The notes beneath the pieces were generated by a model. The model had not been told where the DNA came from and did not search any database. It saw only the letters and a list, made by a program, of their open reading frames with translations. Below are positions 16,725-24,971 of a DNA stretch of 64,000 nt, piece by piece. The stretch comes from Candidatus Poribacteria bacterium (GTDB lineage: Bacteria > Poribacteria > WGA-4E > JAJDTR01): assembly GCA_965222225.1 (NCBI GenBank), contig CBDCTK010000002.1, positions 384,001 to 448,000 of the forward strand. The letters are read 5' to 3'. The position numbers and the translations under genes were made by a program. Within the stretch, counting starts at the first letter, position 1. Each line of letters begins with the position of its first letter.

Positions 16725-19478
16725 ATGTTTGAGAGAAAGAGTCCGATGAATCCCAATCAGCCTTTAAAGGTTGCGATTTCAATCCTCACAGTCTGTCTGA
16801 TGCTGCATGTTTATGTTCAGGCAGGTGAAGCACAAACGGAATCCGCCAAGAATCAGGGCAAGCAGTTAATTGACGATTTTGCGCAGCGTGCAACCGCGAC
16901 TCTTAATGGACAGGTCAACTGGGAAAATATGGATCTCTCCCAGACAACCGTACAGGTGTACAGAGACAAGACATTGACCGAATTATACACAGGTGTTACC
17001 AAAATTGAAGGCGGGCCCTTTTCCATAAAGGTTGAACCGGGCAGCTATTATGTTGTAGCTTTCGTTGACGTAAACAGGTCAGGGAAATTCGACGATGGCG
17101 ACGGTATGGGAATCTTGGGAATTGAGGATTGGCGTAATTCGGGTCAACAAAAGCAGTTGCTCAAGGTTGGTCCGCAACAGACTATTTCTGGGTTGATGAT
17201 TCTTGTGACGGCGAGAAATCAAAGGGGTAAGGTCGTTAGTGCTCAGCAATATCGGCCGGATGCAATTGACCAATTTAAGTCAGAACTTGAGAAAACCTCT
17301 TCCGGTGTAAAAGGAAGTATCAGTTATGCCACTCGTGCTTCTCTTGAAAATACCTCTGTACGCGCCTATACAGATCTTTCTTGGAAATACCTGGCAACCC
17401 AAACCGGGATAGAGGGTGATGGAAGTTTTACCCTCAATTTGAAGCCCGGGAAATATTACTTGATGGTCGTTATTGATTGGAACGATTCAAATCTTATTGA
17501 TCACGGGGATTGGCTGGGTATCCACGGAATTAACAATCTACAAAGTCGGAAGGCGTTTCCCGAACCCATTTTAGTCACCGCCAATAAATTCACGAAAGAC
17601 GTTCAAATTCAGATTTCAGGAAAGCAGCTTGAAAGTGGTCGAGTCGTCCCACTCGTTGACGCCGATTCTGCTTCGACTCCCTTGGACGATAAAATCGTTG
17701 AAGTCTCGGGTACAGTCGTATGGCGGGGGCATAATCTTGATGGATGTGTTTTACAGGTCTATGTGGACCCGACCTTGATACGACCTGTTCAGCAAGTGGA
17801 AGTTGAGGCGGATGGTAACTTCAGATTTCAACTGCGTCCGGGAGATTACTATATGATAGCCAGTGTAGACGCGGACGGGAATGGTCAATATGGTTCTAGT
17901 GACGGAGTTGGTGGTTACGGTACGTTGGACATGACAACTAGACCACCTACGGCACTCACGCTTACAAGTGGCGAAAATGCCAAGATTGAAATTGTGGTGA
18001 GTGCGCAATATGATGTAGATGGTCAACTTCAACCAACCGAATCGAAACATAGAATTTCGCAGTCAAGCAACGCCGAGACAGGTATATCCGGACGTATCGT
18101 GTGGGATGGCAAGAAATTCAAAGGAGGGATTCTGTCGCTTTCCAATATGCCGACGTTTAGCTCTGTTATTCCGATAGCTCTCAACTTGGAAGACGACGGT
18201 CGGTATAAAGTGGCAGTTCCTCCGGGCGATTATTACGTGACGGTAGCCGTTGATGTTGACGCGGATGGGCAAACAGGTCTAAGGGATGGAGTTGGTGTCT
18301 ACGGAACACGTCAACCTGTTCGCGGTACGCCACAATTGGTTTCCGTGTTTAATGATTATGTTACGCCCCATATTGACATTGAGATATTCGCAATGTACAT
18401 TGATTCGGAAGGCAACATCGCCGAATTTGAGGATGGTCACAGGTCCGAGATAAAATACCAACATGGGGACCCGGAAGACATATTTCAGTTCACGCGTTTC
18501 GGACGCGAGTTCGAGGAGTGGTGGTATTGGACGCAAGGACATCATTTCACGTTTTCCCTGACTCCCTCCGGTTGGAAATTGCAGGACCAACAGGAGTTTG
18601 AACCAAAGGTAAGCCTACAGCAACTCGCGCAAGCGCAACATCAGTTTGAGAGCGCGGGATGGCATTCTGATACGGATAATGCCTTGGAGTCAACCTTACT
18701 AAATGCCGCATTTTATTATAGCTACGATGGAATCATCTGGGAATATCACCCAATGGGCGCGTTACAACCTGTGGGTGCAGGGAGTTACCCGACCGTTGCT
18801 CAGAATGGACGACTCGTCTACTTGGATACAGAAGGAAATGTGCTTGGCCGAGATGCTGGTTCTCAAGACTCAAAACTTCTCTTGAGTCGCCAGGAACTGG
18901 CAAAGGAAGTTGTAATTTCTCCGTCAGGGGAGTACATCGGATTCACGCAGCAGCAAATCGATCGACAGCGAATCTTCATCCGACATTTGCCGTCAAATAG
19001 CGAATTTCTTCTTCCTTCTACGGCACGAGAAATGGGCTCGCCGAGGTGGAGCAGCAATGAAGAAATCCTGGCATATAGTACACGCGGAAGTATTGAAAAC
19101 GTGGGTAATCGAACAGGTCGAAACATCTACGCGTATGATCGAATCAACGAACGCATAGAACCGGTTGTAATTAGTAATGAAGATGATGCCGATCCCGCAT
19201 GGTCACCATCAGATGCTAATCTCATTGCGTTCTCGCGTGCCGAAGGAGGACATCGTCAAATCTGGCTCATTAAGTTCAATAGGGAAGGCGAACCGTCAGA
19301 GAATCAACTTACCCGGTACGGGGGCGAAAACCCGGTCTGGCTCCCGGACGGTTCAATAATCCTTTACGAAAGCAACGGTCAACTGTGGTTAATTTCGCGC
19401 GATGGAAGCGATAGCCGACCCGTTATTCATGAAGGCCAACTACTGTATGGCAATGAGCCATACGTTGTTCCCCAATGA
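16725..19478 (+). CDS. Large secreted protein: four beta-sandwich repeats with Dx[DN]x[DN]G-type loops plus C-terminal TolB/PD40 beta-propeller
   Basis: Four repeats of G.F...(V/L).PG.YY..(A/V)..D.(D/N)..G....GD..G..G; ISPSG, PRWS, PAWSP, PVWLPDG propeller blades. Confidence 0.75.
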   Translation: MFERKSPMNPNQPLKVAISILTVCLMLHVYVQAGEAQTESAKNQGKQLIDDFAQRATATLNGQVNWENMDLSQTTVQVYRDKTLTELYTGVTKIEGGPFSIKVEPGSYYVVAFVDVNRSGKFDDGDGMGILGIEDWRNSGQQKQLLKVGPQQTISGLMILVTARNQRGKVVSAQQYRPDAIDQFKSELEKTSSGVKGSISYATRASLENTSVRAYTDLSWKYLATQTGIEGDGSFTLNLKPGKYYLMVVIDWNDSNLIDHGDWLGIHGINNLQSRKAFPEPILVTANKFTKDVQIQISGKQLESGRVVPLVDADSASTPLDDKIVEVSGTVVWRGHNLDGCVLQVYVDPTLIRPVQQVEVEADGNFRFQLRPGDYYMIASVDADGNGQYGSSDGVGGYGTLDMTTRPPTALTLTSGENAKIEIVVSAQYDVDGQLQPTESKHRISQSSNAETGISGRIVWDGKKFKGGILSLSNMPTFSSVIPIALNLEDDGRYKVAVPPGDYYVTVAVDVDADGQTGLRDGVGVYGTRQPVRGTPQLVSVFNDYVTPHIDIEIFAMYIDSEGNIAEFEDGHRSEIKYQHGDPEDIFQFTRFGREFEEWWYWTQGHHFTFSLTPSGWKLQDQQEFEPKVSLQQLAQAQHQFESAGWHSDTDNALESTLLNAAFYYSYDGIIWEYHPMGALQPVGAGSYPTVAQNGRLVYLDTEGNVLGRDAGSQDSKLLLSRQELAKEVVISPSGEYIGFTQQQIDRQRIFIRHLPSNSEFLLPSTAREMGSPRWSSNEEILAYSTRGSIENVGNRTGRNIYAYDRINERIEPVVISNEDDADPAWSPSDANLIAFSRAEGGHRQIWLIKFNREGEPSENQLTRYGGENPVWLPDGSIILYESNGQLWLISRDGSDSRPVIHEGQLLYGNEPYVVPQ

Positions 19479-20812
19479 CACGACGACTCAGCCCCGCAGG
19501 TAGAAAAATGCTTTCACTCAACCGCCTTTTAATAGTACTTATATTTTCGCTAATGTCAATAGTGAACACCGGCTTGGCGCAGTGGATGCTTGTACCGATG
19601 GACCGAGTTCAAACCAATCACCTCAAAGCATACGGCTTGACCTACTGGACGCTCCAAACGCCACGAGAGTATAATACGAAGTGGCTGCTGAACTATCGCG
19701 GCGGTGCGTTTCTCCTTTCCGATTCGCCTGATGTGCGAGCTCAAGCACAGCGTATGGGAGTTAGTTTTGAACCCATCTCCAATCTTGAATACGGCGGTAT
19801 TCAAGCGGAGCTAGAGGGGAGCAACATGGACGAAATTCTTCTGGAGAAAGCGCCGAAGATCGCTGTCTATGCACCGCCTGATAATACGCCTTATCGCGAT
19901 CCCTGGGATGATGCGGTAAAACTTGCATTGGACTATGCGCAAATACCGTACGATAAAATCTGGGATGAGCAAGTTGCAGCAGGTGTTTTGTCGCTGGGCG
20001 AATATGACTGGCTCCACTTGCATCATGAGGATTTTACCGGGCAGCATGGAAAGTTTTACAGAACTTTCAAGAGCGCGGTTTGGTATCAACAACGTGTGCG
20101 TTTGTTCGAAGAAGCTGCCGCCAAAGCTGGATTTAATCGCGTGCCGACTCTCAAAGGATTCATCTCCCAGCGAATCCAAGATTATGTCGTTGGTGGGGGT
20201 TTTATTTTTGCAATGTGTTCTGCACCTGAAACACTAGATATCGCGTGCGCGACAAAGGCAGGGCGTGTCGACATTGTTGAACCGGAGTTGGATGGTACGC
20301 CGCTCGATCCGAATTACCAAGCACAGTTGGATTTTGAGCGAACCTTCGCATTCGAAAATTTCATGCTATACACGGATCCGAATCGATATGAGTTTTCCAA
20401 CATAGATAATCCACAGCCCGACTTCAACCCGTTATCGGGTGTTGAAGATTTCGTTCTATTTGAGTTCGCTGCCAAGCACGATCCGATACCTACAATGCTC
20501 ACGCAGAACCATGTGAGTAAGGTGCGTGGTTACCTAGGACAAACTACGTCCTTCAATAAAGCCACAATTCGGGATACGGTAACGGTTCTCGGTGACATTG
20601 AGGGCAGCCGATACGCGAAGTACATCCACGGAAAATTGGGAAAAGGTACCTTCACCTTTCTCGGTGGGCACGACCCGGAGGATTATAGACATTCCGTTGG
20701 CGAAGGCAAGATCCCGACCAACCTAGATCTTCACAAACATTCACCGGGGTATCGACTTATTCTTAACAACATACTCTTTCCCGCCGCAAGAAAGAAGCTG
20801 CAAAAGACATGA
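19475..20812 (+). CDS. Conserved secreted protein of the family often labelled 'asparagine synthetase B' in Bacteroidota; function unknown
   Basis: PMD..Q.NHLKAYG, WLLNYRGG, PWDDAV, DWLHLHHEDFTGQ.GKF, FAMCSA, GGHDPEDY, GYRLILNN.LFPAA.KK..KT. Confidence 0.75.
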   Translation: MTRRLSPAGRKMLSLNRLLIVLIFSLMSIVNTGLAQWMLVPMDRVQTNHLKAYGLTYWTLQTPREYNTKWLLNYRGGAFLLSDSPDVRAQAQRMGVSFEPISNLEYGGIQAELEGSNMDEILLEKAPKIAVYAPPDNTPYRDPWDDAVKLALDYAQIPYDKIWDEQVAAGVLSLGEYDWLHLHHEDFTGQHGKFYRTFKSAVWYQQRVRLFEEAAAKAGFNRVPTLKGFISQRIQDYVVGGGFIFAMCSAPETLDIACATKAGRVDIVEPELDGTPLDPNYQAQLDFERTFAFENFMLYTDPNRYEFSNIDNPQPDFNPLSGVEDFVLFEFAAKHDPIPTMLTQNHVSKVRGYLGQTTSFNKATIRDTVTVLGDIEGSRYAKYIHGKLGKGTFTFLGGHDPEDYRHSVGEGKIPTNLDLHKHSPGYRLILNNILFPAARKKLQKT

Positions 20813-20865
20813 GATATAAACTTAGCGACCACAAAAAGCGCTGATTTGCACTTCGTATTGGTGGT

Positions 20866-21105
20866 TATACCTTTTCGTTTGAATAGCATGAATAACAGTG
20901 CAAATGATGTTTTAATTATATCATTTTCTTTCTCCGTAGGCGGGGATCAAGCGAGCGCGATAGAAATCCCCTCAAGTGACCGAATAGGGAACGCGATAGC
21001 AATCCCCTTGCCCCGCCGACTTTATGCGGCGACAAGGCATCTTATTCCACTCCACACAAGTTTCTTTACTTGACCCACGCAATTAATGCACTTGAATTTG
21101 GGATA
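20866..21105. mobile_element. Degenerate MITE-like element type II (TATACC...GGGATA ends) containing a GTAGGCGGGG...CCCCGCCGAC REP-like unit at 20936-21020
   Basis: Shares the subterminal CTTGAnnnACGCnATTAATGCACT and the internal REP unit with 34762-34923. Confidence 0.6.
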
Positions 21106-21220
21106 AACGATATGAGTAGAGATCGGTTAGGAACCACGGGGCTCCATTTCGTATGGACAGGATTTTTTCTCGGCATTCCACCGTTTATTTTGTCGACATT
21201 GCATTCTTTACTGCTGCATT

Positions 21221-23323
21221 ATGAAACTTGCTACATTAGCAACCTGCAATCTTAATCAGTGGGCACTTGATTTTAGCGGTAATTTTGAGAGGATAATTGA
21301 ATCTATCCAAGTTGCCAAGAGCAGAGGTGCTCGATATCGGTTGGGTCCGGAACTCGAAATTCCGGGTTATGGTTGCGAGGATGCTTTTTTGGAAGATGAC
21401 ACGTTCCTCCATTCGTGGGAATGTCTTGGTGAGATTCTTAAAAGTGACTTGACAGATAATATCCTCTGCGACACCGGTATGCCCGTTATGCACAAGAATG
21501 TACGATATAATTGCAGAGTCATCGTGTTAAACGGGAAGATTCTCTTTATCCGCCCTAAGCTTGTGCTTGCGTCCGATCGCAACTATCGAGAACCACGATG
21601 GTTCGTTCCTTGGCAATTGCCCAGCAAGTTGGAAGAACACTACCTGCCAAGGATGATTCGGGAAATTACGGGGCAGGCTACTGTACCTTTTGGCGATGGC
21701 GCTATTGCCACTCGGGATACAGCACTCGCTCCCGAGACCTGCGAGGAACTTTTTGCACCCAATAGCCCGCATATTTATCTTGGTCTTGATGGAGTCGAGA
21801 TTATTGCGAACGGATCGGGCTCCCATCACGAACTAAGAAAACTAAATCAGCGGGTTGACCTGATACGGAATGGCACATCGAAAAACGGAGGTGTATATCT
21901 CTACTCCAATCAGAGGGGGTGCGATGGCGGACGCCTTTACTTCGACGGATGCGCGCTTATTGCGGTCAACGGCGAGGTTGTCGCACAAGGCCAGCAATTT
22001 TCGTTGCAAGATGTCGAAGTCGTTACTGCCACAGTGAACCTTGAGGATGTTCGGTCATACCGTGGTGCCATGGTAAGTCGTTCGGTTCAAGCCAGTCAAT
22101 CTCAGCCAATTCCGCGCATTGATGTAGATTTTGATTTGACCGTGGAGGAATATCAGATTGCGCCTTCTGTGCCAACAAAGGTCCGATACCATCTCCCGGA
22201 GGAGGAGATTGCGTGTGGCCCCAGTTGCTGGCTATGGGATTACCTCAGACGGTCTGGTGCGTGCGGTTATTTTCTGCCAATATCCGGCGGATCCGATAGT
22301 TCGTCCGTGGCAACCATGGTTGGCTCAATGTGTCAGATGGTGGTCAATGAGACGGCACAAGGAAATCAACAAGTTATTCGCGATGTTCGCCGATTAGTTG
22401 GAAAAGAAGATACCGATTACTTCCCGGTAGACGCGCGCGAGCTGGCAAACCGTGTCTTCTACACTTGCTATATGGGTACGGAAAATAGTTCCAAGGCGAC
22501 ACGAAGTCGGGCAAAGGTTTTGACGAATCAAATTGGCTCATTCCACTTGGACGCCAATATTGATTCGATAGTTACCGCCATGTTTGAACTCTTTGTGCGC
22601 TTGACCTCAAAAGCGCCTCGATTTAAAGTTGAGGGAGGGACAGATGCCGAAAACGCTGCTCTACAGAACATCCAAGCGCGTTTGCGCATGGTATTGTCCT
22701 ATTTCCTGGCACAACTTTTACCGTGGGTAAGAGGCAAACATGGAGGATTGCTAGTATTGGGAACTGCCAATGTGGATGAGAGTTTACGCGGCTATATGAC
22801 AAAGTACGATTGCAGTAGCGCAGATATCAACCCGATTGGCGCCATTAGTAAAACGGACCTACGCTCGTTTCTGCGATGGGCATCGGAAAATCTCGGATAT
22901 ACCTCCCTCACAGAAATCGTCGAAGCGCCCTCAACCGCCGAATTGGAACCGTTGACCGAAACACATGTGCAGGAAGATGAAGCGGACATGGGCATGACTT
23001 ATGCCGAACTTAGCCGATTTGGCAGATTACGGAAAGTTCATCGTTGTGGTCCTGTGAGTATGTTTGAAAAGCTTGTCCACGAGTGGACACATCTCGCCCC
23101 TAGCGAAGTTGCCGTAAAAGTTAAGAGATTCTTTCGGTATTACGCCATCAATCGTCACAAAATGACGACCCTAACGCCGTCTTATCACGCGGAGTCCTAT
23201 TCACCGGATGACAATCGGTTTGATCTTCGACAGTTTCTCTACAATGTAAGATGGACGTGGCAATTCCACAAAATGGATGAACTTGTGGAAAAAATGCACG
23301 AGAAAAACAGAACGCGAGTTTAA
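21221..23323 (+). CDS. nadE: Glutamine-dependent NAD+ synthetase, eukaryotic QNS1/NADSYN1 type
   Basis: Nitrilase domain (GPELEI, RPK, ETCEE) plus SGGSDS ATP motif, [34 protein letters not shown]. Confidence 0.95.
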
Positions 23324-24971
23324 GATGAGTCTAGGTCTAGCAGACGTTCAAACATTCAAGCGTTCAGTCTCCCCTAAATCTACCAGCATATTAACTATAT
23401 TGCGATGCGCAACATGCAACTCGCACTACCCTCCACTTTTCACCTTTAACGCATGCCTTATTGTCTTCTCCTTCCTTGTAGTAAGTGCAGTCAATGCTAC
23501 GCCAGACGCGGTTTTCCATTTCGACGCATGGGTGAATTCTGCTCTAGAAAAACTAGAAACCGATGGTGTTACTGGCGGTTTTCACCGGCACACACGTCCC
23601 CACACACGTCGCCAGATTGCAGAAGTGATACGTCAAGCACGGCGCCGGCTTGCCAGTGGAAGGAGTAAACCATCCCCCATAACAATGGAACTTCTGGAAA
23701 AATTACAATGTGAGTTCGCTCCGGAGTTAGCCCTCCTATCAGGTCAAGACGATGGGGGTGGATTGCGCGCTCGCGGGACTATCCAGTTGCGGAGTAGACG
23801 AGATAGCTCGGAACTCGGTCCTGTGTATGAAGGGGCGATTATTTATGATGCGGGCGCGTGGATGACGCTCTATCAAGAATTTGAGGTTGCGAACTTGCCG
23901 GAGAAGTATCCAATTCATGGTAAGACTGCTTCGAAACGTCTAAAGTCTTGGCGCGGAGATTTTTCAGCTGACTTCAAGAGAGTTTATCTGCGTTTCCCGA
24001 TTTCCAAGTTCGAACTACTCATAGGCCGTGATCAACTCTTCTGGGGCACAGGATTTCGCGGAGCGGTTGGAATTTCCGATAACTCGCCTCCATTCGATCT
24101 TATTTTGCTGACCGGCAAATTCGGTAAAATTAGAGGAACGTCCTTCACGGCACAACTCGACCAGGTTTGGCATGACGAGGAGCCTCGTCGCTATCTCGCT
24201 AGTCGCTATCTGGCAGGGCACCGATTGGATTACCAAATCAACGACCGCGTTGAGGTCGGAGTCTCGGAGCTAATCTTGTACGGAGGAGAAACACAAGGGG
24301 TTGAATGGCAGTATTTCAATCCAATCCTGCCGTATTATGCCAGCCAATACAATGCTGATAAAGACGACAATGTAATGTTTCTTTTCGAGGGAGCAGTTCG
24401 TCCTGTTGATGGGTTACGTCTTTACGGAGAATTCCTCATGGATGATGTCCATTACGTTAAGGCGAATGATCCAAACGCTGTAGCATGGCTCACGGGGCTG
24501 GAATGGAACCGCACACTCGAATCACGCCGACTAGGGATTCGTACCGAATACGCTCGTGTAAATCGGTGGGCGTATACGCACCTCGTTCAAGAGAATCAGT
24601 TCACCCATTTTGGTTCGATTATTGGACATGAGATTGGAGTAGATGCCGATATTTCTTATCTCGAAGGAAATTATCTGATAAACGCTGATACCCGCGTAAA
24701 CCTGTTCTTTGAGTTGGAACGTCAAGGAGAAGCAGGAGTTGAGGACCGCTATGCCGGTGAAGATTTCCGATTAATCCCGTTTCCATCCGGTGTCGTTGAA
24801 CGCCGGCACAGTTTCGGGTTTCGGTTCGTGTACGAGCCACTCCGTGCTTGGCAATTAGATTTTTCATATCGACACGCTTATACTCTAAACGGGAATCATC
24901 AACGCGGAATCAGTCGGAACTCTAATCATCTTGAGTTCCAGTTCCGATATCTTTGGGAACGAGGTTTTTAA
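23277..24971 (+). CDS. Capsule assembly Wzi-family outer-membrane beta-barrel; true start probably downstream
   Basis: N-terminal helical bundle (RP.TR..IA), [33 protein letters not shown], terminal Phe. Confidence 0.75.

What the first reader, a model, noticed from the sequence alone, without database searches (positions are those of the whole stretch)
21221..23323. Eukaryote-type NAD synthetase (QNS1/NADSYN1) in a bacterial chromosome
Seen: an intronless 700-aa ORF between bacterial envelope genes, overlapping the wzi ORF. From recall of the family: its segments [92 protein letters not shown] and [29 protein letters not shown] track animal, plant and fungal enzymes far more closely than typical bacterial glutamine-dependent NadE. 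Inference: either eukaryote-to-bacterium transfer (plausible for a host-associated lineage) or a bacterial sister lineage of the eukaryotic gene. There is no clear RBS, and a MITE ends about 115 bp upstream.
Basis: partly seen in the sequence, partly recalled or inferred. Interest (0 to 1): 0.75.

Follow-up and report, generated by a model that had tools for sequence, protein, structure and literature searches.

The report
Eukaryote-type NAD synthetase in Poribacteria
This sponge-associated bacterium makes NAD with an enzyme about as similar to the animal and fungal version as those are to each other, a clear case of an ancient gene exchange between bacteria and eukaryotes whose direction is still open.

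Summary
ORF 21221-23323 (+) is an intact 700-aa fused glutaminase/NAD synthetase. It matches the chain I recall as human NADSYN1 over its full length (948 bits; next-best solved bacterial enzyme 215 bits). It is 60-66% identical to slowly evolving animal, fungal and amoebozoan enzymes, the level eukaryotic supergroups show among themselves. It carries the catalytic triad, the PP-loop, the eukaryote-specific tunnel residues and every eukaryote-type indel found.

It is neither an assembly artefact nor a recent import. It is the only NAD synthetase found in this Poribacteria genome and its base composition is native. Contigs from other samples bridge both junctions. Its place between a conserved unknown gene and wzi is kept in two divergent families.

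A strong match is present in 138 of 139 sampled genomes of the order, in 0 of 11 from the rest of the phylum, in 26 of 121 of one Chloroflexota order, and in 1 of 401 CPR genomes (the seed genome).

Poribacteria and Chloroflexota form one well-supported clade in an unresolved radiation with the eukaryotic supergroups. Eukaryote monophyly is rejected under LG+G4 (p 0.016) but not under a site-heterogeneous model (p 0.23, 0.47).

My odds are about 55% for ancient eukaryote-to-bacterium transfer and 35% for a bacterial sister or donor lineage. It did not come from the sponge host.

The parts
21221..23323 (+). nadE, a eukaryote-type (NADSYN1/Qns1-like) glutamine-dependent NAD+ synthetase of 700 aa. 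It is the only NAD synthetase found in the genome.
   Evidence: ORF. Pfam CN_hydrolase plus NAD_synthase. Full-length match to PDB 6ofb at 948 bits. The other PF02540 hits in the genome are LarE and MnmA.
21236..22063 (+). N-terminal nitrilase-like glutaminase domain (residues 6-281). It carries the triad E44, K113, C174, the NYRE loop at 121-124, and H202.
   Evidence: PF00795, E 1.3e-36. Residue positions and their conservation across 56 aligned rows.
22229..23014 (+). C-terminal NAD synthetase (PP-loop ATP pyrophosphatase) domain (residues 337-598) with the motif S355-G-G-S-D-S360.
   Evidence: PF02540, E 8.2e-25. The motif is invariant in all aligned rows.
20856..21104 (.). MITE-like multi-copy repeat inserted in the spacer upstream of nadE. 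It is strain-specific and plays no part in the origin of the gene.
   Evidence: 45 matches in the genome, own place included. Inverted termini and an internal direct repeat. Missing from L010, L011 and L013. Depth spike and contig breaks at this point.
23277..24971 (+). wzi-like capsule assembly gene, probably co-transcribed with nadE. An alternative start lies at 23325.
   Evidence: PF14052, 83 bits. N-terminus and DNA around the starts. It is syntenic with nadE in the genus and in family f2.
19475..20812 (+). Conserved 445-aa gene of unknown family, the upstream syntenic partner of nadE.
   Evidence: No Pfam or NCBIfam match. tblastn identity is 67.5-91% in the 47 related loci that match it, always just upstream of nadE.

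Best explanation
The ORF encodes the cell's only NAD+ synthetase. [quoted passage not shown] The N-terminal nitrilase-like domain hydrolyses glutamine with the Glu44-Lys113-Cys174 triad. The ammonia then passes through an internal tunnel to the C-terminal PP-loop domain, which has adenylated NaAD.

The protein belongs to the eukaryotic NADSYN1/Qns1 branch, not to any ordinary bacterial NadE branch. It keeps the tunnel-constriction residues of the human enzyme, so it most likely works like that enzyme, with an intra-subunit tunnel and weak preference for glutamine over ammonia (inferred).

The gene entered the ancestor of one order of Poribacteria by an ancient transfer between domains, most likely from an early eukaryote. 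It replaced the ancestral bacterial NadE and has been inherited vertically at the same chromosomal position since. The same gene lineage is shared with one Chloroflexota lineage through transfer between bacteria.

What is shown: the identity of the enzyme, that it is the sole copy found, vertical inheritance, and that it is not an artefact. What is inferred: the direction of the transfer and the kinetic behaviour.
For: **Identity**
- Pfam finds CN_hydrolase at residues 6-281 and NAD_synthase at 337-598.
- The best solved structure is 6ofb, E 2.2e-284, covering residues 4-689. The next are 3ilv at 215 bits and 3dla at 76 bits.
- Identity is 60-66% to 25 of the 34 named or EukProt eukaryotes compared. 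On the same scale, mammal against fungus is 63.5% and mammal against amoebozoan 59.4%.
- The triad, the PP-loop and Y50 are invariant. N121-Y122-R123-E124, G200 and H202 match the eukaryotes, where outgroups have I/V/L-H-Y-E or E/V-F/Y-Y/D-E, Ala or Ser, and Pro, Asn or Asp respectively. PMC6946656 names Tyr123 and His203 as conserved in eukaryotes and Phe and Pro as conserved in prokaryotes (passages read).
- About a dozen indels separate the nearest bacterial type from all eukaryote-type rows. Poribacteria share every one.

**Sole copy and pathway**
- There is one true PF02540 gene in the genome, which is 94.9% complete. The other two hits are LarE and MnmA.
- Bacterial NadD, NadA and a NAPRTase-like gene are present.

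**Not recent, not an artefact**
- GC is 0.484 and GC3 0.479, against 0.500±0.016 and 0.510±0.034 for 24 ORFs of the window.
- The order up1-nadE-wzi is conserved in the genus and in family f2, whose nadE is 66-70% identical.
- Contigs from other runs bridge both junctions: X7 record 31 spans 20973-24200, and X17 record 20 spans 21063-23056.
- 20 runs from 9 studies hold the stretch.

**Acquired at the base of the order**
- A strong full-length match is found in 41 of 41 relatives and in 138 of 139 genomes of families f1-f4.
- None is found in the 11 genomes of the other families of the phylum, where the best E-value is 1.2e-7. Five of those, checked with PF02540, carry ordinary NadE: open frames of 544-585 aa that align to P0001 in three, frames of 267-269 aa, or 329-441 aa frames beside a nitrilase-like frame.

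**Direction of transfer**
- The type is in every named eukaryote I retrieved but is patchy in bacteria: 1 of 201 in a sample of the class Anaerolineae, 26 of 121 in one Chloroflexota order, 1 of 151 in a CPR class and 1 of 401 in the CPR phylum.
- The LG+G4 trees nest the bacterial clade among eukaryotes, and the AU test rejects eukaryote monophyly at p 0.0157.
Against: **Direction is not settled**
- Under LG+C20+F+G4 (PMSF) the AU test does not reject eukaryote monophyly. p is 0.226 with distant outgroups and 0.466 with the nearer Bacteroidota/Vibrio outgroups.
- Without outgroups, a tree that holds all bacterial rows together is as likely as the free tree (p 0.507).
- In the near-outgroup tree the CPR-like pair branches below eukaryotes plus Poribacteria and Chloroflexota (SH-aLRT 89).
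- The LG+G4 rejection may come from long-branch attraction of the alveolates to the outgroup. The tree tool flagged this.
- No indel ties the bacterial clade to any eukaryotic subgroup.

**Weak sampling**
- My sampling outside the opisthokonts is thin: 2 amoebozoans, 1 red alga, 1 plant fragment, 4 SAR members and 5 unnamed EukProt rows.
- Many representatives in the trees carry no name.

**Other limits**
- A bacterial origin of the eukaryotic branch has been published (PMC3376133).
- Enzyme activity, oligomeric state and substrate preference were not tested.
- Presence in RNA libraries does not prove transcription.
Confidence: 0.55

Rival explanations
1. This is a bacterial sister or donor lineage. 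The 'eukaryote-type' enzyme evolved in bacteria, and the Poribacteria/Chloroflexota clade, perhaps with the CPR-like group, descends from or is close to the lineage that gave the gene to the ancestor of eukaryotes. On this reading the window's gene is a bacterial relative of NADSYN1, not a eukaryotic import.
For: - AU tests under the better-fitting C20 model do not reject eukaryote monophyly (p 0.226; p 0.466).
- All bacterial rows can be held together at no cost in likelihood.
- With near outgroups the CPR-like pair is basal.
- The bacterial clade is not nested with support inside any one supergroup.
- The gene is stably and vertically inherited in two bacterial lineages: 138 of 139 in the Poribacteria order and 26 of 121 in a Chloroflexota order.
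- PMC3376133 concludes that the eukaryotic branch arose from a bacterial branch.
Against: - The other classes and orders of Poribacteria carry ordinary NadE. The type was therefore gained within the phylum and is not ancestral to it.
- It was found in only 1 of 201 sampled Anaerolineae and 1 of 401 sampled CPR genomes, the seed genome each time.
- No deep, diverse bacterial grade was seen along the very long stem that separates this type from the nearest bacterial type. That stem carries 2.7+2.7 changes per site under C20 and about a dozen indels.
- The LG+G4 trees and AU test place the clade inside eukaryotes.
- P0001 is no more distant from fungi or animals than eukaryotic supergroups are from each other. 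A donor lineage would therefore have had to stay unusually static.
Confidence: 0.35
2. This is a recent import from the sponge host or another animal, or eukaryotic contamination or a chimeric join in the assembly.
For: - The identity to animal enzymes is very high.
- The lineage is host-associated: one of the RNA studies holding the stretch is labelled sponge metagenome.
- A mobile repeat lies just upstream.
Against: - The gene sits in the same place in 41 of 41 relatives, several of them single-contig genomes.
- Synteny holds across families.
- Its composition is native.
- Independent contigs bridge both junctions.
- The repeat is a later, strain-specific insertion.
- In every tree the clade lies outside animals, whose own clade has 100% support.
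- There are no introns, and the flanking genes are bacterial.
Confidence: 0.01

Closest known systems
Human NADSYN1 (hsNadE, PDB 6ofb; the link between this code and the human enzyme is from my recall plus PMC6946656) and yeast Qns1
   Same: - The two-domain architecture and the length (700 aa against 706-707 aa).
- A full-length alignment at 948 bits; identity to a mammalian orthologue is 60.4%.
- The catalytic triad, the PP-loop and the NYRE loop.
- The constriction residues Tyr and His that the paper calls eukaryote-specific.
- An acidic/basic pair, D119 and R608, at the positions of human Glu120 and Lys609.

   Different: - It is encoded without introns in a bacterial chromosome, probably in an operon with wzi.
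- It is the sole NAD synthetase of a bacterium that otherwise has bacterial NadD and NadA.
- The C-terminal tail differs.
- Its kinetics and its octameric state are untested.
Bacteroidota/Vibrio-type fused NadE (PDB 3ilv, Cytophaga hutchinsonii by recall; Spirosoma linguale pSLIN01 Slin_6745; Vibrio parahaemolyticus and V. vulnificus nadE next to pncB)
   Same: It is a fused glutaminase-synthetase of 640-695 aa with the same triad and PP-loop. It is the nearest bacterial type outside the eukaryote-type clade that I found (215-223 bits).
   Different: - Identity is only about 28.6%.
- About a dozen indels separate it from the eukaryote type.
- The loop reads I/V/L-H-Y-E in place of N-Y-R-E.
- A very long branch separates the two types.

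Mycobacterium tuberculosis-type NadE (PDB 3dla; NCBIfam PRK02628), the 'branch I' of De Ingeniis et al. 2012
   Same: It catalyses the same reaction with the same domain order. It is the type that some other Chloroflexota carry (660-700 aa frames).
   Different: - Only the glutaminase domain aligns significantly (76 bits).
- P0001 scores 138.6 bits against a cut-off of 473.
- It has Phe and Pro where P0001 has Tyr122 and His202.
- Its ammonia tunnel runs between subunits and its glutaminase is strongly activated (PMC6946656 abstract and passages).

Membership tests
Eukaryote-type glutamine-dependent NAD+ synthetase (NADSYN1/Qns1; 'branch II' of PMC3376133) | An N-terminal nitrilase-like glutaminase fused to a C-terminal NAD synthetase domain, about 700 aa in all | tested here: met
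   PF00795 at residues 6-281 and PF02540 at 337-598.
Eukaryote-type glutamine-dependent NAD+ synthetase (NADSYN1/Qns1; 'branch II' of PMC3376133) | Full-length similarity to eukaryotic enzymes far above that to any other bacterial type | tested here: met
   948 bits to 6ofb, against 215 bits (3ilv) and 76 bits (3dla). 60-66% identity to animals, fungi, amoebozoans and an oomycete. It scores about 1100 bits against a profile built from four eukaryotes, the same range as true eukaryotes.
Eukaryote-type glutamine-dependent NAD+ synthetase (NADSYN1/Qns1; 'branch II' of PMC3376133) | The catalytic Glu-Lys-Cys triad and the PP-loop SGGxDS | tested here: met
   E44, K113, C174 and S355-GGSDS are invariant in all 56 aligned rows.
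Eukaryote-type glutamine-dependent NAD+ synthetase (NADSYN1/Qns1; 'branch II' of PMC3376133) | The eukaryote-specific tunnel-constriction residues Tyr123 and His203 (human numbering), where prokaryotes have Phe and Pro (PMC6946656) | tested here: met
   Y122 and H202 are present in all 7 Poribacteria, 5 Chloroflexota and 2 CPR-like rows. Among 29 eukaryotes, 28 have Tyr and 24 have His. The distant outgroups have Phe in 8 of 9 rows and Pro, Asn or Asp at the second position (paper passages).
Eukaryote-type glutamine-dependent NAD+ synthetase (NADSYN1/Qns1; 'branch II' of PMC3376133) | The indels that set the type apart from the nearest bacterial type | tested here: met
   Insertions near residues 146-151, 310, 471, 501 and 507 and deletions near 381 and 557 are shared by Poribacteria, Chloroflexota, CPR and eukaryotes and differ from the four near outgroups.
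Eukaryote-type glutamine-dependent NAD+ synthetase (NADSYN1/Qns1; 'branch II' of PMC3376133) | Placement inside the clade in maximum-likelihood trees | tested here: met
   The clade of eukaryotes plus Poribacteria, Chloroflexota and CPR is separated from all outgroups with 100% support in every rooted tree.
Eukaryote-type glutamine-dependent NAD+ synthetase (NADSYN1/Qns1; 'branch II' of PMC3376133) | Enzyme behaviour of the human type: octamer, intra-subunit tunnel, little preference for glutamine over ammonia | not testable with these tools
   Inferred only from conserved residues. I ran no fold and no assay.
Typical bacterial fused NadE (NCBIfam equivalogs PRK02628 and PRK13981) | Whole-protein score above the curated cut-off | tested here: not met
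   138.6 bits against 473, and 101.9 bits against 479. Only the domain-level model TIGR00552 passes, at 83 against 63.65.

The most novel reading that the evidence does not exclude
The Poribacteria/Chloroflexota clade, possibly with the CPR-like group, is the surviving bacterial sister of eukaryotic NADSYN1/Qns1. That would make it the closest living relative of the lineage from which the ancestor of eukaryotes took its NAD synthetase. The published proposal of a bacterial origin for the eukaryotic enzyme would then become directly testable with real bacterial intermediates.
Probability: 0.3. Interest if true: 0.7.

Novelty: new member of a known kind. Interest (0 to 1): 0.5.

Why it matters
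NAD synthetase is a core housekeeping enzyme, and its eukaryotic branch has been treated as a compact, eukaryote-only group. This window shows that a whole order of sponge-associated bacteria and a sizeable Chloroflexota lineage run on that branch after losing the ordinary bacterial enzyme.

Either reading is useful. If eukaryotes were the source, this is a clean, old and stably fixed replacement of an essential bacterial gene by a eukaryotic one. If bacteria were the source, these lineages are the missing relatives that could root the eukaryotic enzyme.

There is also a practical side. An intronless bacterial orthologue about 60% identical to human NADSYN1 should be easy to express. It could serve as a model for the human enzyme, which is involved in congenital NAD deficiency and which the authors produced in insect cells.

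Databases name these proteins plain 'NAD(+) synthase', with no note of their affinity.

Tried and rejected
**Calls that gave little or nothing**
- The ESM Atlas look-ups for two deep unnamed representatives returned only generic eukaryotic NADSYN clusters and no usable taxon label.
- The PMSF tree of 77 rows did not finish in two calls. I replaced it with LG+G4 on the same rows and with PMSF on 31-36 rows.
- Midpoint rooting was dropped because the deepest group holds long-branch eukaryotes (Myxobolus; Eimeria nearby).
- Earlier notes of this scan held nothing on this place or this topic.
- The phage collection held only distant NadE, at 24-28% identity.
- The promoter and terminator scan around the gene was no better than shuffled sequence.

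**Ideas tested and dropped**
- A shared indel that would tie the bacterial clade to one eukaryotic group: none found.
- The missing Shine-Dalgarno motif as a sign of foreign origin: 24 of 42 ORFs in the window also lack one.
- The MITE as the vehicle of the gene: it is absent in close relatives.
- A sponge-host origin: the clade never branches with animals.

**Not run**
- I ran no structure prediction and no complex prediction.

**Literature**
- Four full-text searches found no paper describing a eukaryote-type NAD synthetase in Poribacteria, Chloroflexota or other bacteria.
- The supplementary tree and tables of PMC3376133 could not be opened and may list such bacteria.
Full report
**The observation.** The next ORF, 23277-24971, is a Wzi capsule-assembly homologue (PF14052). 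Read as the longest ORF it overlaps nadE by 47 nt, but a second ATG at 23325 lies two bases after the nadE stop. Upstream lie a 917-aa protein with weak beta-propeller matches and a 445-aa ORF without any family. The region downstream continues with purF and purM, with folD on the opposite strand. The neighbourhood is plainly bacterial. Relatives' record titles name the organism as Candidatus Poribacteria. The window is G000:C2:384001-448000 of a 5.7-Mb, two-contig genome that is 94.9% complete.

**What the protein is.** Pfam finds a CN_hydrolase domain (residues 6-281) and a NAD_synthase domain (337-598). No NCBIfam equivalog for bacterial fused NadE reaches its cut-off: 138.6 against 473, and 101.9 against 479.

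Among solved structures the best match is 6ofb, which I recall as human NADSYN1. It scores E 2.2e-284 and 948 bits over residues 4-689. The next are 3ilv at 215 bits and the M. tuberculosis enzyme at 76 bits.

Against named eukaryotes, P0001 is 65.8% identical to a mucoromycete fungus. It is 60-64% identical to other fungi, vertebrates, amphioxus, a hemichordate, dictyostelids and an oomycete, 55% to a red alga, and 43-49% to fast-evolving alveolates. On the same scale mammal against fungus is 63.5% and mammal against dictyostelid 59.4%. The bacterial protein is therefore as close to eukaryotes as the eukaryotic supergroups are to one another.

The triad E44/K113/C174 and the PP-loop S355-GGSDS are invariant. 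Chuenchor et al. 2020 (PMC6946656; abstract and passages read) name Tyr123 and His203 as conserved in eukaryotes, with Phe and Pro conserved in prokaryotes. P0001 has Y122 and H202, as do all 14 bacterial eukaryote-type rows; the branch-I-like and short fused outgroups have Phe and Pro, Asn or Asp. About a dozen indels separate the nearest bacterial type from the eukaryote type, and the Poribacteria protein shares every one with eukaryotes.

**Not an artefact, not recent.**
- The gene is the only NAD synthetase found in the genome. The two other PF02540 hits are LarE and MnmA. Bacterial NadD, NadA and a NAPRTase-like gene supply the rest of the pathway.
- GC (0.484) and GC3 (0.479) lie within about one standard deviation of 24 other ORFs of the window.
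- The stretch is held by 20 public runs from 9 studies, 6 of them RNA libraries.
- A 4-kb contig of another study spans 20973-24200, and a 2-kb contig of an RNA library spans 21063-23056, so both junctions are bridged independently. Contigs in RNA libraries do not prove transcription.
- The arrangement unknown gene-nadE-wzi recurs in the same genus and in family f2, whose nadE is only 66-70% identical. It does not recur in family f3 or in Chloroflexota.
- The MITE-like repeat is real: 45 matches in the genome including its own place and a depth spike. It is a 250-bp insertion absent from three close relatives, so it has nothing to do with how the gene arrived.
- No Shine-Dalgarno-like motif precedes the gene, but 24 of the 42 ORFs checked in the window lack one too.

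**Distribution.**
- A full-length match is present in 41 of 41 close relatives.
- In a sample of the phylum it is present in 138 of 139 genomes of families f1-f4, which are labelled same order. Identity falls with rank: 87-93% in the genus, 80% in the family, 66-80% in the order.
- The 11 genomes of the remaining families show only E-values of 1e-4 to 1e-7 or nothing. Five of them, checked directly, carry ordinary NadE. Three have open frames of 544-585 aa that align to P0001 along their length. Two of those also have short frames of 267-269 aa. The other two have 329-441 aa frames next to what looks like a nitrilase-like frame, a pairing I did not verify by Pfam.
- Outside the phylum, the type occurs in Chloroflexota at 66-73% identity. 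It is in 1 of 201 genomes in an even sample of the class, which is the seed genome itself, but in 26 of 121 genomes of the order that holds an Ardenticatenaceae genome.
- One CPR (Peribacteria) genome has a 53-54% identical copy beside a classical single-domain NadE. It has bacterial neighbours. No other holder turned up among 151 genomes of its class or 401 of its phylum.

**Phylogeny.** I named eukaryotic rows from source names. Outgroups were branch-I-like NadE of Chloroflexota and fused NadE of other Poribacteria classes, and later the nearer Bacteroidota/Vibrio type found on plasmids.

In every tree the eukaryote-type sequences, bacterial ones included, are separated from outgroups with 100% support. 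Poribacteria plus Chloroflexota form one clade, with SH-aLRT 94-99 and ultrafast bootstrap 97. That clade never falls inside animals.

| Model and data | Placement of the bacterial clade | AU test |
|---|---|---|
| LG+G4, 77 rows | Sister to opisthokonts (SH-aLRT 91) | not run |
| LG+G4, 48 named rows | In a polytomy with the supergroups, above the alveolates | Eukaryote monophyly rejected, p 0.0157, ΔlnL 34.9 |
| LG+C20+F+G4 (PMSF), distant outgroups | Groups weakly with Amorphea plus the red alga (87) | Monophyly not rejected, p 0.226 |
| LG+C20+F+G4 (PMSF), no outgroup | Tree is a star | Holding all bacteria together costs nothing, p 0.507 |
| LG+C20+F+G4 (PMSF), near outgroups | CPR-like pair branches first (89); the rest is a polytomy | Monophyly not rejected, p 0.466 |

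The rejection under LG+G4 is therefore model-dependent. It is probably inflated by long-branch alveolates drawn toward a very long outgroup branch. The tree alone does not give the direction of transfer.

**Weighing the two readings.**

Points for a eukaryotic source:
- The type is in every named eukaryote retrieved but patchy in bacteria.
- It was clearly gained inside the phylum Poribacteria.
- It is vanishingly rare in CPR.
- No deep bacterial grade was found along the long stem that leads to the type.

Points for a bacterial sister or donor lineage:
- Eukaryote monophyly is not rejected under the better model.
- With near outgroups the CPR-like pair branches first (SH-aLRT 89).
- The gene is stably and vertically held in two bacterial lineages.
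- De Ingeniis et al. 2012 (PMC3376133; abstract and passages read) concluded that the eukaryotic branch came from bacteria. In the passages I read they describe Eukarya as a compact group, with no bacterial members mentioned.

I put the odds at about 55 to 35. Recent host-derived transfer or contamination gets about 1%.

**How it most likely works.** As the sole NadE downstream of bacterial NadD, the enzyme must amidate NaAD to NAD. Every residue of the human triad, the loop next to it, the constriction and the helix-to-loop contact has an identical or chemically equivalent counterpart: D119 for Glu120 and R608 for Lys609. I therefore infer a human-like mechanism. The human enzyme is reported to have an intra-subunit tunnel, modest glutaminase activation and no marked preference for glutamine over ammonia (PMC6946656 abstract). 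Whether that suits an ammonia-rich host tissue is speculation.

**Novelty and limits.** Sources label these proteins plain 'NAD(+) synthase' or 'glutamine-dependent NAD(+) synthetase'. Four full-text searches found no description of bacterial members of the eukaryotic branch.

The enzyme kind is known. What is new is its host range and what that implies for the origin of the eukaryotic enzyme.

The limits are these:
- Sampling of named non-opisthokont eukaryotes is thin.
- Many representatives are unnamed.
- Supports under the C20 model are SH-aLRT values from quick searches.
- There is no biochemical or structural test.

Noticed in passing
window 19475-20812 (+): A 445-aa ORF with no Pfam or NCBIfam family. 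It is 67.5-91% identical in the 47 related loci that match it, across two families, and always sits directly upstream of nadE. It is a well-conserved gene of unknown function specific to this order.
   Followed up: partly
window 20856-21104: A MITE-like repeat with inverted termini (GTAGGCGGGG / CCCCGCCGAC) and an internal 23-nt direct repeat. The query has 45 matches in the genome, its own place included, out of 348 first-look candidates of which 40 were scored. Short-read assemblies break at it.
   Followed up: partly
related genomes G068, G069, G070, G080, G089, G118, G119, G122, G132: In nine genomes of family f2, eight of genus g9 and one of g13, the match to P0001 splits into two pieces around residues 310-315. 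In most of them both pieces lie inside one open frame of 719-779 aa. This points to a lineage-specific insertion in the linker between the two domains.
   Followed up: no
G156 (CPR genome holding L081/L108): A 1.4-Mb Peribacteria genome carries both a classical 254-aa single-domain NadE and a eukaryote-type fused enzyme that is 53-54% identical to P0001. The fused gene sits next to a TypA/BipA gene. No other holder was found among 401 sampled genomes of the phylum.
   Followed up: partly
L104-L107 (plasmid records): The nearest non-eukaryote-type fused NadE sits on mobilizable plasmids of Spirosoma and Hymenobacter. It also sits next to pncB on 0.9-Mb replicons of Vibrio parahaemolyticus and V. 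vulnificus, so this type of NAD synthetase is itself mobile.
   Followed up: no
L092, L094 (G108, G044; other orders of the same Poribacteria class): Here the NAD synthetase domain appears to sit beside a separate nitrilase-like frame, not fused to it. That would be the clustered two-subunit form described in PMC3376133. I did not check it by Pfam.
   Followed up: no
window 16725-19478 (+): A 917-aa protein with only weak, scattered matches (transthyretin-like, DUF2141, PD40 repeats). It is syntenic with the nadE block in two families.
   Followed up: no
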